Source: Octopus vulgaris
Lineage: Eukaryota
Length of the DNA stretch: 64,000 bases
Assembly (NCBI GenBank): GCA_951406725.2
Contig: OX597830.1
Location: forward strand, 66,402,001-66,466,000
Reading direction: 5' to 3'
This document shows positions 9,272 to 64,000 of this stretch, in pieces. The translations under genes were made by a program, and so were the position numbers. The notes beneath the pieces were generated by a model, which saw nothing but the letters and a program-made list of their open reading frames with translations, made no database searches and was not told where the DNA came from. Every line of letters begins with the position of its first letter. The first letter of the stretch is position 1.

Positions 9272-10155
9272 GTTGAGTCATTCCATAAATAATGCAGTTT
9301 TTTTTTACTTCTTTTACTTTTCAAAATTAAGATAAACACAGTTCTTCTTTAATCTAAAATATACTCTCCTTCATTTTCTACAATGCTCTCCTATCTATCT
9401 GGTAGACTTTCAAGGTCTCTATTCCAAAATTCATTTTTGTCTGTGACAAAAAATACTCCTTCAGAATTGTTCTGACCTCATCTACAGAATTTATGATTTT
9501 TCTGTCCAAATGATTTTGAAGACTGTGGAATAAATGATAATCAGATGGGGTAATGTCTGGTGAATACGGTTAGTGGGGCATTATTTTCCATTCAAACTGC
9601 TCCAGCCTTTGGAATGTCATCTTCGCTGTATGTGGCTGAACATTAACCTGATGGAAGAAAACCTTTTGTCTTGCAACTAAATATGGTCGTTTTTCTTCTA
9701 GCGCTCACTGAACCTGCTCAAGCCGTTTGCATTAGATCTTTGTTATCGTTTGGTTTTGGTTTAAAAGCTAAAAGTGGACTAAACCTTTCATATCTCACCA
9801 AACAGATAACAATACTTTACATGGGTGAAGGCCTTCTTTAGCCTGGGGGGTTAGTGTTTCTCCTTTCCCCACCCACTGTCTTTGGTGCTTGACATTTTTA
9901 TAAAGAACCCACTTCTTGCCACCAGTCACTATTCGGTCCAAAAAAAGTTCATTCATGAGACATGACAGCAGAGAAGAGCACATATTTATTCTCTGCATGT
10001 GATTAGACTCGGAAAGTTTGTGAGGAACACATTGACCCAATTTGCTGACTTTTCCGATGGCACGCAGGTGTCGAATGGTTGAATAACCGAATCTAAGCCT
10101 CTCTGCTAGTTCCTCAACAGTTACAATAGAATTTTGTTCCATCAGGGTTTACAGG
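9272..10155 (-). mobile_element. 5'-truncated mariner (DD34D) transposon with pseudogenised transposase
   Basis: Minus strand motifs CVPHKL (WVPHEL), IVTGGKKWVLY, PYSPDITPSDYHLF and C-terminal VENEGEYILD*, with stops and frameshifts. TIR-like end near 9272. Confidence 0.9.
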
Positions 10156-10348: not shown

Positions 10349-10892
10349 GTATATATATATATATGCGCACGCACACACACATATGCACGCACACACACAT
10401 ATGCACGCACACACACATATGCACGCACACACATGTATATATTTAATGTCTGTGTTTGTCCCTTCACCATCACTTTTGTGGTTTGACCAAAGGGACCAAT
10501 AGAATAAGTACTAGGCTTGTAAGGAGTAAGTCCTGGGGTTGATTTCTTTGACCAAAATCATTTGAAGTGGTGTTCCAGCATGGCCACAGTTTAATCCACT
10601 GAAACAAGTAACAGATATTCTTTTACTTGTTTCAGTCGTTTGATTGTGGCTATGCTGGAGCTTTGTCTTGAAGGATTTTAGTCAAAAAATTGACCCTAGG
10701 ACTTATTCTATCAGTGTCCTCTGCCAAACTGTCAAGTCACAGGGACATAAACTCACCAATATCGGTTGTGAAGTGATGGGTGTTTGTGTGGGTGGGTGGG
10801 GTGGACAAATACAGACAAAGATACACAGACACACACACTTACATGCATATACATATGTGTGTGTGTATATATGTGTGTATGTGTATATATAT

Positions 10893-11147
10893 AATATTAG
10901 GGAGTATAACTCCAAAGTTACAGGGAAAAATTCAATTTAGTATTAAATCAAATTTCACAGTATAAAATATAAATTAGAGATAAAACCACTATTATGCACC
11001 CCAAACAGTGATAGACAGAAACCAATACATAAATGTAAAAAAAAAAATTAAAATTTATATATATATATTGGTTATTTAAGTATTGGTTTATGTCTATCAC
11101 TGTTTGAGTTGCATAATAATGGTTTTATCTCTAATTTATATTTTATA
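10893..11147. mobile_element. AT-rich Penelope-like family copy with fold-back (74-bp arms 10961-11034 / 11074-11147)
   Basis: Head tccaaa(g/c)ttacagggaaaaa is shared with ~46530, ~57370 and ~61710. The inverted arm is visible. Confidence 0.65.
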
Positions 11148-12764: not shown

Positions 12765-13254
12765 TTTAGCCTTTTAGCACTCAGATAATTTATTCAAATG
12801 TAATGCTTATTTATTCACATAATTTTGAATTTATCATTCATTATTCTGTAGCTTCAAGATTTCGATGTGAATGTTTATTTTTAGAATGATATTGTAGGAT
12901 AGGTGTGAGAGGTTAGATCTAGCCAGTTTGTACATAAAGAGACAAGTCCCTTAGCTCCTTGGGTGTCTTTGGGGTGCTGCAGTCATGCAGTGTATCTAGG
13001 GTGAGAAAGCTTGGTGGAGCTTATCCCTCTCCAAGCTAAACTCATTTCTATTGCTGAGTGGACTGGAGCAACATGAAGAGAAGTGATTTTTGCTCAAAAA
13101 TACAATGCATCGCCTGGTCCAGGAATCGAAATCACAATCTTACGATCGTGAGTCCAACACCCTAACCATTAAGCCACATGCCTCCACTTCTTCGTACATA
13201 AAAAAGATAAAATATATGGCCTGGATATGGCTGGTTTAAGTGCTATAGAGTTAG
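12765..13254. mobile_element. piggyBac-like MITE interrupted by a SINE-containing insert (~12939-13193)
   Basis: Ends ttagccttttagca ... tgctatagagttag are a degenerate TTAA-ccctttagca TIR. The insert is flanked by duplicated gtacataaa and carries a minus-strand tRNA head at ~13040-13187. Confidence 0.5.
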
Positions 13255-18139: not shown

Positions 18140-18892
18140 TTTTTTTTTCCTTCTTTCTTCAAATTTTCTTCCATTTCTCGCCGAGTGTTTTCCATACACC
18201 TAGGGCAGAGAAGCTCATTGTATGCATTCCCACATTACACACACAAATTCACAGGTAAAATATGTATTTAAAAAAATTAGTATGTAAATAAATTCATGAA
18301 TGGATCTTGTTTTCACAGTGAAAATGCTCTTCTCAGTACATGAGTTGTTCCAGTTATCAGCCTGGTATCATTTTCAAATAGGTTTCAGTACCTTTTTTTT
18401 TTTTATCATTCCTAGAGATTCTACAATCACAGCTACTGAAGTTGCCTTGAGATGTCACATTTTTTCAATTTCTAGTATCAAGTCTTTATATTTACTGATC
18501 TTGTCAAATTCTTTTGCTGCTATATTGTGATCGCACGGAATACTCATGTCAATTAATAAGCACACCTTTTTTGTCTGATCTTTTATAATAGCATCTTGTT
18601 TATTAACTTTTATAGTTTTGTTGGTATGTATGGAGAAGTCCCAGAGAATCGACACATTTTCTCCTTCAGTCACAGCTTCAGGATGGTATTTATACCATTT
18701 GTCAGCGGTTTTGATTTGATAATGCTGACATATTTTCCACTGTAAATACTGGCTGACTCTGTCATGTCTTGCTTTATATTCTACAGGTGCTAAGACTCTA
18801 CACTCTGAGATTAGGTGGTCTATAGTTTCAATCTCATTGTTACGGAATCAGCATTTTGGGTCAGCTCCATTTTTTACCACATTGGCTTTGTA

Positions 18893-34002: not shown

Positions 34003-34394
34003 CATACATACATACATACATGATGGCTGCTACCCTCGTTATCGAGTATGGCCATTGCACGAAGCTTAACTGTTATTGGTGCTGTGATCGAATGTGACTT
34101 TTTAGCCCAGCTAAAGATCTACAATGTCTTGTACAGAATTGGCAACTAAAACCTTTACCGGTAATAGCCGGCTGTAGTTGTAACTGGGCTTCATGTACCT
34201 TTGCATGTCGTTTAAGTCCTCCTGCTGAATTACACTCTCTTCCACATGCCCGGCAGATATGATTAGTATGGTGTGTTACTCATCTGTCTCGCTTTATGAC
34301 TACGAAGATGACTCTTGAGTCCAGCTTCACTGAGGCAGGGTCTTGCACAGACATTGCATGTCAGCATCAAAGGAAGACCATTCCCATCTGGTCA
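34003..34394 (-). mobile_element. 3' end of RTE-like LINE encoding three C2H2 zinc fingers, in (TGTA)n
   Basis: CNVCARPCLSEAGLKSHLRSH, one frameshift, then CRACGRECNSAGGLKRHAKVH and CQFCTRHCRSLAGLKSHIRSQH*. A short 3' UTR with ctcgataacgag hairpin precedes the (tgta)n tail. Confidence 0.75.
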
Positions 34395-42122: not shown

Positions 42123-42765
42123 TATATGCTTCTGGGTTCAATCTCTCTGAACGGCAAGTGTCTTATACTACAACCTTGGGTTGATCAATAACTCCTGCAT
42201 GTAACAGAAATTGTGCTGAAGCCTATTACACATGCATGTACGCATGCCTGCACATATGCACTCACAGACACACACACTTCCACATGCATACATTCGCTTG
42301 GTCTTGAAATTTGCTCCCTAACAACATGCCTCTGGGTTTGATCTCTCTGTATGTCCAGTTTGAATATAGAATCTTAATTTCTGAACCAGGGTGGAATTGT
42401 GGACTTGTACATTGCCATGGGGCTGGCACTCTGGTCTTTTGTAATGAAATCTCTTCCTAAATTCCCTCAAAACCTCCACAAAGCTCTTTTTGTCGACTGT
42501 CTGGCCAGAGGGAACCCAGTAGATGTAGATGATGCCCTTTCTGTTGAAAAACCCAGAGGCATGTTGTTAGGGAGCAAATTTCAAGACCAAGCGAATGTAT
42601 GTGTGTGGAAGTGTGTGTGTCTGTGAGTGCATATGTGCAGGCATGCGTACATGCATGTGTAATAAGCTTCAGCACAATTTCTGTTACATGCAGGAATTAT
42701 TGATCAACCCAAGGTTGTGGTATAAGACACTTGCCATTCAGAGAGATTGAACCCAGAAACATATA
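42123..42765. repeat. Local inverted duplication (217-bp arms 42123-42339 / 42549-42765)
   Basis: The arms are reverse complements with about 7 transition mismatches. Confidence 0.9.
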
Positions 42766-46525: not shown

Positions 46526-46849
46526 AATAATAAATATTAGGGAATAAATCCAAACTTACAGGGAAAAATCAGATTTAGGATTAAATCCAATTTTATAGTA
46601 AAATATTATATTATATTAAATTAGAGACAAAACCACTATTAGGCAAATCAAACAATGAAAGACTTAAGCCAATACATATGATTAATTTATATTATTTAAA
46701 TATGTAACAAAATTATTAAAAAATATAATTAATTATATTTTTTAATAATTTTGTTACATATTTAAATAATATAAATTAATCATATATATTGGCTTAAGTC
46801 TTTCATTGTTTGATTTGCCTAATAGTGGTTTTGTCTCTAATTTAATATA

Positions 46850-46854
<5 letters not shown>
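46526..46854. mobile_element. AT-rich Penelope-like family copy ending in a 248-bp spacerless palindrome (46607-46854)
   Basis: Arms are 124 bp, centre 46730/46731, one mismatch seen. Confidence 0.8.
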
Positions 46855-57363: not shown

Positions 57364-57609
57364 AATAATAAATATTAGGGAATAAATCCAAATTTACAGG
57401 GAAAAAAATCAGATTTAGGATTAAATCCAATTTTATAGTAAAATATTATAAAATATTATTAGAGACAAAACCACTATTTTGCAAAACAAACAAGGAAAGA
57501 CTTAATCAATACATAAAATTTTAATAAATAGTCAAAATTTATTAAAATTTTATGTATTGATTAAGTCTTTCCTTGTTTGTTTTGCAAAATAGTGGTTTTG
57601 TCTCTAATA

Positions 57610-57619
<10 letters not shown>
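57364..57619. mobile_element. AT-rich Penelope-like family copy with fold-back (83-bp arms 57447-57529 / 57537-57619)
   Basis: Shares its head with 46526. The arms are separated by a 7-nt spacer. Confidence 0.8.
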
Positions 57620-61638: not shown

Positions 61639-61706
<68 letters not shown>

Positions 61707-61846
61707 ACTAATATGAGGGAATATTATTCCAAACTTACAGGGAAAAATTCAATTTAGAAATACTAAATCAAATTTCACAAAATATAATATATATATATTT
61801 ATATATATACACATATTAATCAAAGTGTATAGTATTAGTATATATA

Positions 61847-61954
61847 TCCACCACAGCTGATCTTACCAATTGGTTTCACACTAGGAGTTCAACAGAATGT
61901 TAGGTAACAGTCCGATTATGTAACCCTGTGCTCATCAGAGGTAACCATTATGGA
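61847..61954 (-). ncRNA. Type I hammerhead ribozyme (intact core), next to a Penelope-like head at ~61705-61790
   Basis: Minus strand: CTGATGA (61938-61932), stem II gcac-agggtt / aactcct-a-gtgt, GAAA (61877-61874), stem III ACCAATTGGT, GUA cleavage triplet. Stem I is imperfect. Confidence 0.75.
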
Positions 61955-62346
61955 ATGAAATATGGCCACACAAACACACACTTATGAATATCTGGAAATA
62001 AAAATTCAACATGACTGGATTTTGACTCCATATGGTGGATGTATCTTCAATTTCTAGTTATGTTGGAATCACAGATATATTTTTATACACACAACTTTTC
62101 TAACATATATTTATCTATTTATACATGCATATATATCCATATAAAGAATTGATGTATACACAACAAAGAATAAATCCACAGCAATTAAGAACTCAGTTTA
62201 TGACAGATCATTCCACTTGTTTCGTGTTCTATCTGTTTTACATTGAAACTAGCCAGATCCAGTCTTTCATGCCTACTCTACAATGTCACTTCAAAGATAA
62301 ACACTCACATCATTGAAATCTTGAAGCTATGAGATAATGTATGATT

Positions 62347-62746
62347 AGGCGAAGGAGTGGCTGTGTGGTAAGTAGCTTGCTAACCAACCACATGGTTCCG
62401 GGTTCAGTCCCACTGCGTGGCATCTTGGGCAAGTGTCTTCTGCTATAGCCCCCGGGCCGACCAATGCCTTGTGAGTGGATTTGGTAGACGGAAACTGAAA
62501 GAAGCCTGTCGTATATATGTATATGTATGTGTGTGTTTGTGTGTCTGTGTTTGTCCCCCTAGCATTGCTTGACAACCGATGCTGGTGTGTTTACGTCCCC
62601 GTTACTTAGCAGTTTGGCAAAAGAGACCGATAGAATAAGTACTGGGCTTACAAAAAGAAAAAGTACCGGGGTTGAGTTGCTCGATTAAAGGCGGTGCTCC
62701 AGCATGGCCGCAGTCAAATGACTGAAACAAGTAAAAGATAAAAGAT
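62347..62746 (+). mobile_element. SINE family A
   Basis: Matches the family consensus. Confidence 0.85.
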
Positions 62747-63539
62747 TATAGTTGTTTGGAGCCCTGAATAGGGGTCCCAAGGGCATGTAGATGCTTAGCC
62801 GCAATGGACCATCAGGGAACACTTACCCAAACCCCACCCTCCCAGTAAGTGAAAGATTTCCAGTGAGACAGAGAGAAAGAGACCTCCAGTAAGAGTGAGA
62901 GAGAGAGATTTCCGTGAGAGAGAGGGGGGTGGGTGAGAAAGAGATTTCAAGTATTGGTGGCAGGGGTGGGAAAGGGTGGGTGCAATCACCGATATGAAGG
63001 GTCATTTTAAGGGTTATAGCAAATCATTTTAGAGAAAAGTATGGGATAAGTATATACAAGTATATAGCCAAGACCAAGGTTAGTCATTTTAGGGGCAGAA
63101 CAAACAAGAAAGAATTATTTTAGAGAAAAGATGGGTTTGAATGAATGAGACAATTAAAAAAAAAAAACAAGGGAGATTCTTTGCTTAGCTGTACATATTT
63201 TCGAGTGTCATCGCCGAACACACGGACTAAACTAAACTAAACTAACGAAAGTCTGAGAGCATGAGGAACAGGTGTAGGGGCGACAGCCAGAAATGGACAA
63301 AGAGAAATAGCAGTGAGTGACCATCGCAATAAGAAATAAGAGATACAGACAGGAATGAAAGTGAACAGTATGAAATATGTATATATATATATCACCGACA
63401 TGAAAGGTCATTTTTGGGGTTATAGCAAATTATATATATATGTATATATATATATATATAAGTAGGTGAATGAATTATCACTGTGGTCACCATGTAGGCA
63501 ATCATCAAAACTTTTGTTCGTCTTGTGGCTGAAAGAGGC

Positions 63540-63636
63540 TCCTTATCTTTCCTGATGAGAAGATGGCATAATGCACCATTTATTCCTTCGGAATTAAAAG
63601 TATGCCGTCTTCGAAACATGTGTTGAGAGTAAAGGA
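63540..63636 (+). ncRNA. Type I hammerhead ribozyme (intact core)
   Basis: Stem I tccttatctttc / gagagtaaagga (5+5 bp around a 2x2 loop), CTGATGA 63552-63558, 12-bp stem II GAAGATGGCATA / TATGCCGTCTTC, GAAA 63613-63616, minimal stem III with palindromic ACATGT, GUU triplet 63622-63624. Confidence 0.85.
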
Positions 63637-64000
63637 ATGTTGTTAAAATCTTCGTTCGACTCCATTCTTTCATTTATTCATATATATATATATATATATA
63701 TATAATAACAAAATAATAAATAAAACATATGCATATATACATAAATATATGTACGTACCTCCATCTATATGTATATATACATGCATATATGGGTACAGGA
63801 CACCAAAAAAGCGTAGAACACAATGAGAAACGAAAACATAAAAACAAAACCATGGTAACGGACATTTTTTTACACACATATATACTTTTGTATTGTCACT
63901 GTTTCCCTTTTAGAGCATGCTTTTTCTGACTCATTGATGACTAACTGATAATGTGTGTGTGTGTGTGTGTGTGTGCAGTGAAGGGAAGGAAGCAATAACT

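What the first reader, a model, noticed from the sequence alone, without database searches (positions are those of the whole stretch)
61705..61954. Second hammerhead (minus strand) attached to the AT-rich fold-back repeat family
Seen: on the minus strand CUGAUGA-stem II-GAAA-ACCAAUUGGU (perfect palindrome)-GUA lies about 60-150 bp from the head atattccaaacttacagggaaaaattcaatttag. That head also begins the fold-back copies at 10893, 46526 and 57364. Its sequence is unrelated to the 63540 ribozyme but the architecture is the same. Inference: this ties the AT-rich palindrome family to ribozyme-bearing Penelope-like elements.
Basis: partly seen in the sequence, partly recalled or inferred. Interest (0 to 1): 0.72.

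Follow-up and report, generated by a model that had tools for sequence, protein, structure and literature searches.

The report
Decayed hammerhead repeat beside fold-back remnant
A hammerhead ribozyme motif (predicted to be a self-cutting RNA) sits in a 126-base stretch repeated many times in this animal's DNA, likely the decayed end of a Penelope-like jumping gene, and its closeness to the AT-rich fold-back repeat is probably only because both insert in TA-rich DNA, so this is an already known kind of thing.

Summary
The motif is real. On the minus strand lie CUGAUGA (61938-61932), a 54-nt helix II branch, GAAA, the palindrome ACCAAUUGGU and A17 at 61864; 0 of 300 shuffles give one. Contigs of four runs show it fills a high-copy module, 61841-61966, at 200-1400 times single-copy depth. 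Listed family variants spare the conserved core (only free position 7 varies) and turn all six G-U pairs of this copy into Watson-Crick pairs, though 11 of 20 variants are CpG sites, so this is decay and not covariation. The link to the fold-back family is not supported. The three other head copies share only about 85 bp, then continue in a different sequence with no core. All 27 listed long pieces of other module copies stop at 61839-61845. The tool masked 61705-61820, so a rare joined subfamily is not excluded. Best reading: an old 3' piece of a (TA)n-targeting Penelope-like element, lying beside a separate tail remnant. No Penelope ORF was found, and whether the family extends past 61966 is unresolved. 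Such hammerheads are published, including one from an octopus element.

The parts
61841..61966 (-). High-copy hammerhead module (this copy decayed); the 3' edge runs into a short TA run
   Evidence: tables 2 and 8; 27 of 27 listed pieces of other copies span 61839-61845 to 61963-61966
61932..61938 (-). Catalytic box CUGAUGA; position 7 (61934) varies U/A in 28-40% of family depth
61878..61931 (-). 54-nt helix II branch, a predicted interrupted rod of 20 bp; closing pair G-U here, G-C in 40-46% of family depth
61874..61877 (-). Catalytic box GAAA
61865..61874 (-). Palindromic helix III, ACCAAUUGGU: hairpin -0.9 kcal/mol, self-dimer -13.0 kcal/mol
61863..61864 (-). Predicted cleavage site after GUA (untested)
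   Evidence: hammerhead numbering from established knowledge
61939..61954 (-). 5' strand of a predicted extended helix I (2 + 6 + 5 bp with internal loops)
   Evidence: constrained fold
61847..61863 (-). 3' strand of the predicted extended helix I
   Evidence: constrained fold
61797..61840 (.). AT-rich spacer shared with neither family at high copy
   Evidence: only 61821-61840 visible; about 3-4 single-copy units
61709..61796 (-).
10892..11147 (.). Fold-back copy 1: about 69-nt tail, arms 10961-11034 and 11074-11147, TA flanks, no hammerhead box
46527..46854 (.). Fold-back copy 2: about 80-nt tail, arms 46607-46730 and 46731-46854, no hammerhead box
57365..57619 (.). Fold-back copy 3: about 82-nt tail, arms 57447-57529 and 57537-57619, no hammerhead box
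63462..63680 (+). Second, unrelated hammerhead element between two TA runs (core 63552-63624, 12-bp helix II, 54-nt branch)

Best explanation
The stretch 61841-61966 is one copy of a high-copy repeat holding a complete hammerhead ribozyme motif, likely the decayed 3' end of a Penelope-like retroelement that inserts into TA runs, and it probably lies next to the fold-back remnant only because both families target the same TA-rich DNA. Shown: the core boxes, the palindrome, the repeat's limits at this locus, and family letters that restore Watson-Crick pairing. Inferred: in the active element the RNA would fold helices I and II, two copies would pair through the palindromic helix III, and the RNA would cut after GUA at 61864 to release unit-length RNA from a tandem transcript. 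The element's reverse transcriptase and GIY-YIG nuclease would then copy it into a nicked TA run, starting about 22 nt past the cut site and usually stopping early. This copy is solo, has no partner ribozyme of its family in the window and has six G-U pairs where relatives have Watson-Crick pairs, so it is probably a fossil.
For: Motif beyond chance: 0 of 300 shuffles. Repeat: 200-1400 single-copy units in six bins over 61837-61968 in 4 of 4 runs, against 1.5-5 in the two flanking bins (the tool warns that depth is no copy number). Of 20 listed variant sites in the module, none is at the 13 fixed core positions (p = 0.09 alone) and one is at free position 7. A fold constrained only at the core, from this copy alone, has 36 pairs, 6 of them G-U; all 6 are made Watson-Crick by a listed variant (7 of 20 sites on 12 positions, hypergeometric p = 0.0004; base-matched energy test p = 0.018). 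With majority letters the extended helix I forms without constraint. Penelope-type traits: palindromic helix III, and the 3' edge at a TA run. Ten listed opposite-strand joints in contigs fit tail-out fold-backs. One locus (3 runs) joins both core halves across a 13-nt branch in place of the 54-nt one (table 5c; only 21 letters on the short side). Papers: PMC4209133 (main text parts 1-2 of 4) finds most such motifs as single copies of probably truncated elements. PMC8557442 (passages; supplement parts 1, 2, 24) lists TA-targeting octopus elements, and Hydra-1_oBim with a near-palindromic helix III. Independence from the head.
Against: No reverse transcriptase or GIY-YIG hit in 150 of 166 non-low-complexity six-frame pieces of at least 55 aa (the 16 shortest were not scanned). 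The flank 5' of 61966 is near single-copy at this locus, so nothing ties the module to a Penelope ORF. Rfam gives no hit at gathering score; the best hammerhead match is a partial HH9 hit at 11.3 bits, E 8.6. The unconstrained fold of this copy does not adopt the active shape (z -0.26; the constrained fold is 4.5 kcal/mol above the minimum). Eleven of 20 variants are at CpG sites, so there is no independent covariation, and two variants (61893, 61948) break a pair taken singly. Depth does not fall toward the 5' edge as a 5'-truncated family might show. The tool masked 61705-61820 and hid 40 variant rows, 1145 loose ends and 16,909 pieces. The four runs carry four organism labels but are close kin, and one may be the source sample.
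Confidence: 0.55

Rival explanations
1. The 126-bp module is a whole, very short non-autonomous element: a ribozyme-only unit whose ends pair (extended helix I), moved in trans by a Penelope-like enzyme, like a solo retrozyme monomer. It would still be separate from the head family.
For: All 27 listed pieces end at 61963-61966. Six of 10 listed opposite-strand joints restart at 61961-61966. Depth does not decline toward the 5' edge. Helix I takes in nearly the whole module. The second hammerhead element lies complete between two TA runs, and its ends also pair.
Against: Every piece must end where this copy ends, so the 5' edge may be only this copy's truncation point. The joints may have unlisted letters between their sides. 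23 of 27 pieces run on for 20 or more letters past the 5' edge, and their content was not shown. No tandem head-to-tail copy is in the window.
Confidence: 0.28
2. One reading: head, spacer and hammerhead are one element, a subfamily of the AT-rich fold-back family whose 3' end carries the ribozyme about 155 nt from the tail.
For: Same inferred orientation and only about 45 bp apart. Residual depth of 3-4 single-copy units at 61815-61836, with 1-4 contigs per run showing a 5-nt gap at 61836. Cleavage sites of published Hydra elements lie some tens to about 150 nt from the element end (estimated from lengths and positions).
Against: 3 of 3 other head copies continue in a shared different sequence without core boxes. 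17 of 27 pieces have 20 or more letters beyond the 3' edge, and none aligns to the spacer. The residual depth is about 1% of the module's and can come from chance alignment of TA-rich flanks.
Confidence: 0.12
3. The motif is a chance match, or lies in a repeat that never used it as a ribozyme.
For: No Rfam hit; the free fold is unremarkable; cleavage is untested.
Against: 0 of 300 shuffles; variation avoids the core except at position 7 and restores pairs.
Confidence: 0.05

Closest known systems
Type I hammerheads in the terminal repeats of metazoan Penelope-like elements (Cervera and De la Pena 2014, PMC4209133)
   Same: CUGANGA and GAAA boxes, G10.1-C11.1 closing pair in many family copies, palindromic helix III suited to dimers, long helix II, short proximal helix I (2 bp as in D. 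virilis), mostly solo dispersed copies
   Different: The helix II branch is 54 nt against 6-8 bp stems; helix I is predicted to extend to 13 bp; no separate unpaired base before G10.1 in this fold; no linked ORF shown
Hydra-clade and Naiad Penelope-like elements of Octopus (Craig et al. 2021, PMC8557442: Hydra-1_oBim, Naiad_Obim, Naiad_Ovul)
   Same: TA-run targets, tail-out inverted copies and a terminal tail; Hydra-1_oBim has a type I hammerhead with a near-palindromic helix III that begins ACCA
   Different: Different sequence: six 10-14 nt strings from the window gave 0 hits in the supplement (line breaks can hide a hit), and by eye the Naiad 3' ends in part 24 differ. The published tail is 30-40 bp, against 69-82 bp in the fold-back family. 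A long branch of about 53 nt (counted by eye) occurs in spike-moss PLE-X1_sMoe.
Non-LTR retrozymes of animals (PMC7229834; bioRxiv 10.64898/2026.07.22.740005)
   Same: Non-coding repeat with a type I hammerhead; solo monomers are common; derived from Penelope terminal repeats
   Different: Retrozymes are tandem units of about 300 bp; this module is 126 bp, solo, with no tandem seen and no circular RNA shown

Membership tests
Type I hammerhead ribozyme | Conserved core CUGANGA, GAAA, UH | tested here: met
   no fixed core site among 20 listed family variants (40 rows hidden)
Type I hammerhead ribozyme | Helices I, II and III can form around the core, helix I open-ended | tested here: met
   constrained fold -21.4 kcal/mol with 36 pairs; proximal helix I only 2 bp; not the free minimum
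Type I hammerhead ribozyme | Pairing supported by compensatory change | tested here: inconclusive
   6 of 6 G-U pairs become Watson-Crick in relatives, but 11 of 20 variants are CpG sites and linkage is not visible
Type I hammerhead ribozyme | Match to an Rfam hammerhead model at gathering score | tested here: not met
   HH9 partial 11.3 bits against 52; this is a library threshold, and the 63552 motif has no hammerhead hit either
Type I hammerhead ribozyme | Self-cleavage after H17 | not testable with these tools
   needs an assay
Penelope-like element | RT plus GIY-YIG ORF linked to the repeat | tested here: inconclusive
   none in the window; no genome held, so longer copies could not be read
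Penelope-like element | Hammerhead with palindromic helix III near the 3' end | tested here: met
   cut site about 22 nt from the module's edge; self-dimer -13.0 kcal/mol
Penelope-like element | Tandem or tail-out inverted insertions | tested here: inconclusive
   10 listed opposite-strand joints in contigs; letters between the sides not known; this copy is solo
Penelope-like element | Insertion at TA microsatellite (Hydra, Naiad) | tested here: inconclusive
   met at this copy's 3' edge; the flanks of other copies were not shown
Non-LTR retrozyme | Head-to-tail tandem units each with a hammerhead | tested here: not met
   single copy at this locus; a few joints in contigs go back 30-80 nt, too short for a unit
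Non-LTR retrozyme | Accumulates as circular RNA | not tested
   no raw RNA reads laid
AT-rich fold-back (head) family of this window | Shares the arm sequence that follows the tail | tested here: not met
   arm against arm 0 of 1000 shuffles in 3 of 3 pairs; 61791-61966 against the arms not significant in 3 of 3

The most novel reading that the evidence does not exclude
This genome carries families of tiny (about 126 and 218 nt) ribozyme-only mobile units: a hammerhead with an unusually long 54-nt helix II arm, closed by pairing of the unit's own ends, self-processed and perhaps circularised, and spread to hundreds of copies by Penelope-like enzymes. They would be shorter than the roughly 300-nt animal retrozymes in the papers I read.
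Probability: 0.2. Interest if true: 0.55.

Novelty: new member of a known kind. Interest (0 to 1): 0.3.

Why it matters
As it stands it adds one more hammerhead-bearing repeat family, with an unusually long helix II, to a class published in 2014 and already recorded for an octopus element. It shows that Rfam models miss such long-armed forms. It also warns against reading adjacency in TA-rich DNA as linkage. If the 126-bp module proves to be a whole element, it would be a minimal natural substrate for testing what Penelope-like enzymes need in order to move an RNA, and whether the hammerhead helps or parasitises them, a question left open in PMC8557442.

Tried and rejected
The whole-window Rfam scan showed only microsatellite-driven miRNA-like matches among the 150 of 289 rows displayed. 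Local scans gave no hammerhead at threshold. Pattern scans found no copies: module pattern in metagenome contigs 0; head pattern in metagenome, viral and prokaryote contigs 0, 0, 0. A loose core pattern hit 2 viral contigs. L001 does not fold as a hammerhead, and L002 has the boxes but an alternative minimum fold and no helix I in it; I treat both as unrelated and did not follow them. No tRNA. Earlier findings: nothing for this genome or these sequences; one search returned only microbial and viral notes. Paper searches for hammerhead with octopus or cephalopod found no description of this family. The O. vulgaris repeat paper (PMC13282606; part 1 of 3 and a term search) has 0 mentions of hammerhead or ribozyme. 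Its supplement was listed but not read and its Zenodo library is out of reach, so it may already hold this repeat. PMC5785218 (dimer cleavage assays) is not held and is known only from its title in a reference list. A tandem 37-nt doubling inside the tail holds for 2 of 4 copies only, so I do not rely on it. I rejected reading the paired changes at 61913/61894 and 61914/61893 as compensatory, since all four are CpG sites.

Full report
Setting. The window is microsatellite-rich animal DNA (GC 26-42%) with many copies of one SINE-like repeat (for example about 62345-62710). I recall that repeat as octopus-type; the label comes from memory and from no call. No genome is held.

Observation. On the minus strand CUGAUGA lies at 61938-61932, GAAA at 61877-61874, the palindrome ACCAAUUGGU at 61874-61865 and A17 at 61864. 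A loose scan gave 6 rows at 4 sites. A strict descriptor, set after that scan, keeps 2 sites (61938 minus, 63552 plus) and finds none in 300 of 300 shuffles. The head motif occurs 4 times against 0.03 expected, and the other three copies are fold-backs. The two hammerheads share only the core, and both have 54 nt between the boxes. Rfam does not recognise either.

The hammerhead is its own repeat. I laid contigs of 4 of the 24 listed runs (four organism labels) on 61705-62340 at 80% likeness. Relative to the single-copy flank at 62013-62056, depth is 200-1400 units in the six bins from 61837 to 61968, 2.6-3.9 at 61815-61836 and 1.5-5.1 at 61969-61990. The tool warns that depth is no copy number, so I read this only as 'hundreds'. 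Of 32 listed pieces, 5 are this locus itself (1-8 differences) and 27 are other copies (9-24 differences in about 126). All 27 start at 61839-61845 and end at 61963-61966; 17 have 20 or more letters beyond the 3' edge that do not align to the spacer. Several of the 27 are the same locus seen in different runs, and 16,909 pieces were not shown. The tool masked 61705-61820, so the head itself was not seen.

Structure. With only the core and five closing pairs fixed, this copy folds at -21.4 kcal/mol into a 20-bp interrupted helix II rod and an extended helix I (2 + 6 + 5 bp), with 36 pairs of which 6 are G-U. Twenty variant sites are listed in the module: 14 paired (7 give Watson-Crick, 5 give G-U, 2 break the pair taken singly) and 6 unpaired, one of them the free position 7. 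None is at a fixed core position (p = 0.09 alone). All six G-U pairs are converted, including G10.1-U11.1 to the canonical G-C (p = 0.0004 for 7 of 20 sites on those 12 positions; energy test p = 0.018). Against over-reading: 11 of 20 sites are CpG, so the pattern is best read as a well-paired ancestor decaying, not as compensatory evolution. Forty variant rows were hidden. The free fold of this copy is not the active one (z -0.26). The palindrome is a poor hairpin (-0.9) but a good dimer (-13.0 kcal/mol), which matches the dimer model in PMC4209133.

The link to the head family fails. The 61709 copy shares about 85 bp with the other three, which is almost exactly the tail that their inverted arms lack. 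Their arms match each other (0 of 1000 shuffles in 3 of 3 pairs) but not 61791-61966 (not significant in 3 of 3), and they hold no relaxed core box. So neither family runs into the other at any frequency I can see. The module sits between a TG-rich run on its 5' side and a TA run on its 3' side, as expected if it dropped into a compound microsatellite (inference).

What it is. Palindromic helix III, a cut site about 22 nt from a TA run, and opposite-strand joints (10 of 15 listed) fit the 3' end of a TA-targeting Penelope-like element. PMC4209133 (parts 1-2 of 4 read) reports thousands of such motifs per genome, mostly solo. PMC8557442 (passages; supplement parts 1, 2, 24 and three term searches) describes inverted 5'-truncated copies, a 30-40 bp tail, TA targeting, and octopus Hydra and Naiad families, with a hammerhead in Hydra-1_oBim and a branch of about 53 nt in a spike-moss element. 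None matches this sequence. PMC6765202 (passages) notes that these elements tend to insert into or next to earlier copies. A squid genome paper counts 235 hammerhead loci (passage). No RT or GIY-YIG piece was found in 150 of 166 six-frame segments, so membership is unproven. The 5' limit is unresolved: the edge at 61966 may be this copy's truncation or the family's true end. The second reading would make it a very short retrozyme-like unit (PMC7229834, passages; bioRxiv 10.64898/2026.07.22.740005, part 1 of 5 and passages; its supplements were not seen).

Verdict. Interest 0.3.

Noticed in passing
window 63462-63680 (+): The second hammerhead element lies whole between two TA runs; its two ends are predicted to pair (9 + 4 bp), and it has the same 54-nt spacing between the core boxes as the 61938 motif.
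   Followed up: partly
joint 61876-61931 (runs X1, X3, X6): A single-copy-depth contig joins both core halves across 13 letters in place of the 54-nt arm: probably a relative with a canonical short helix II and a changed G12; short side only 21 letters.
   Followed up: partly
window 10892-11147, 46527-46854, 57365-57619: Fold-back family with TA flanks and a 69-82 bp unpaired tail, about twice the published Penelope tail; 4 tail copies in 64 kb suggest a very high genomic copy number; no hammerhead box.
   Followed up: partly
window 62230-62340 and 62101-62170: Further very high-copy repeats in the contig depth (up to about 19,000 single-copy units at 62299-62320 in X1); 62246-62345 also matches 12833-12929.
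   Followed up: no
window 62985-63027 and 63391-63433: 43-nt direct repeat, 88% alike, 406 bp apart, just upstream of the second hammerhead element.
   Followed up: no
window 9798-10148 (-), 42321-42566 (-): Mariner-type transposase fragments (Pfam Transposase_1).
   Followed up: no
window 34076-34279 (-): C2H2 zinc-finger coding piece, possibly a host exon.
   Followed up: no
window 18455-18847 (-): 130-aa frame that by recall resembles the C-terminal zinc-knuckle region of a non-LTR retrotransposon; no Pfam hit.
   Followed up: no
L002 1001-1067 (+): A viral contig with both hammerhead boxes and a near-palindromic helix III; its minimum fold is not the hammerhead one.
   Followed up: partly
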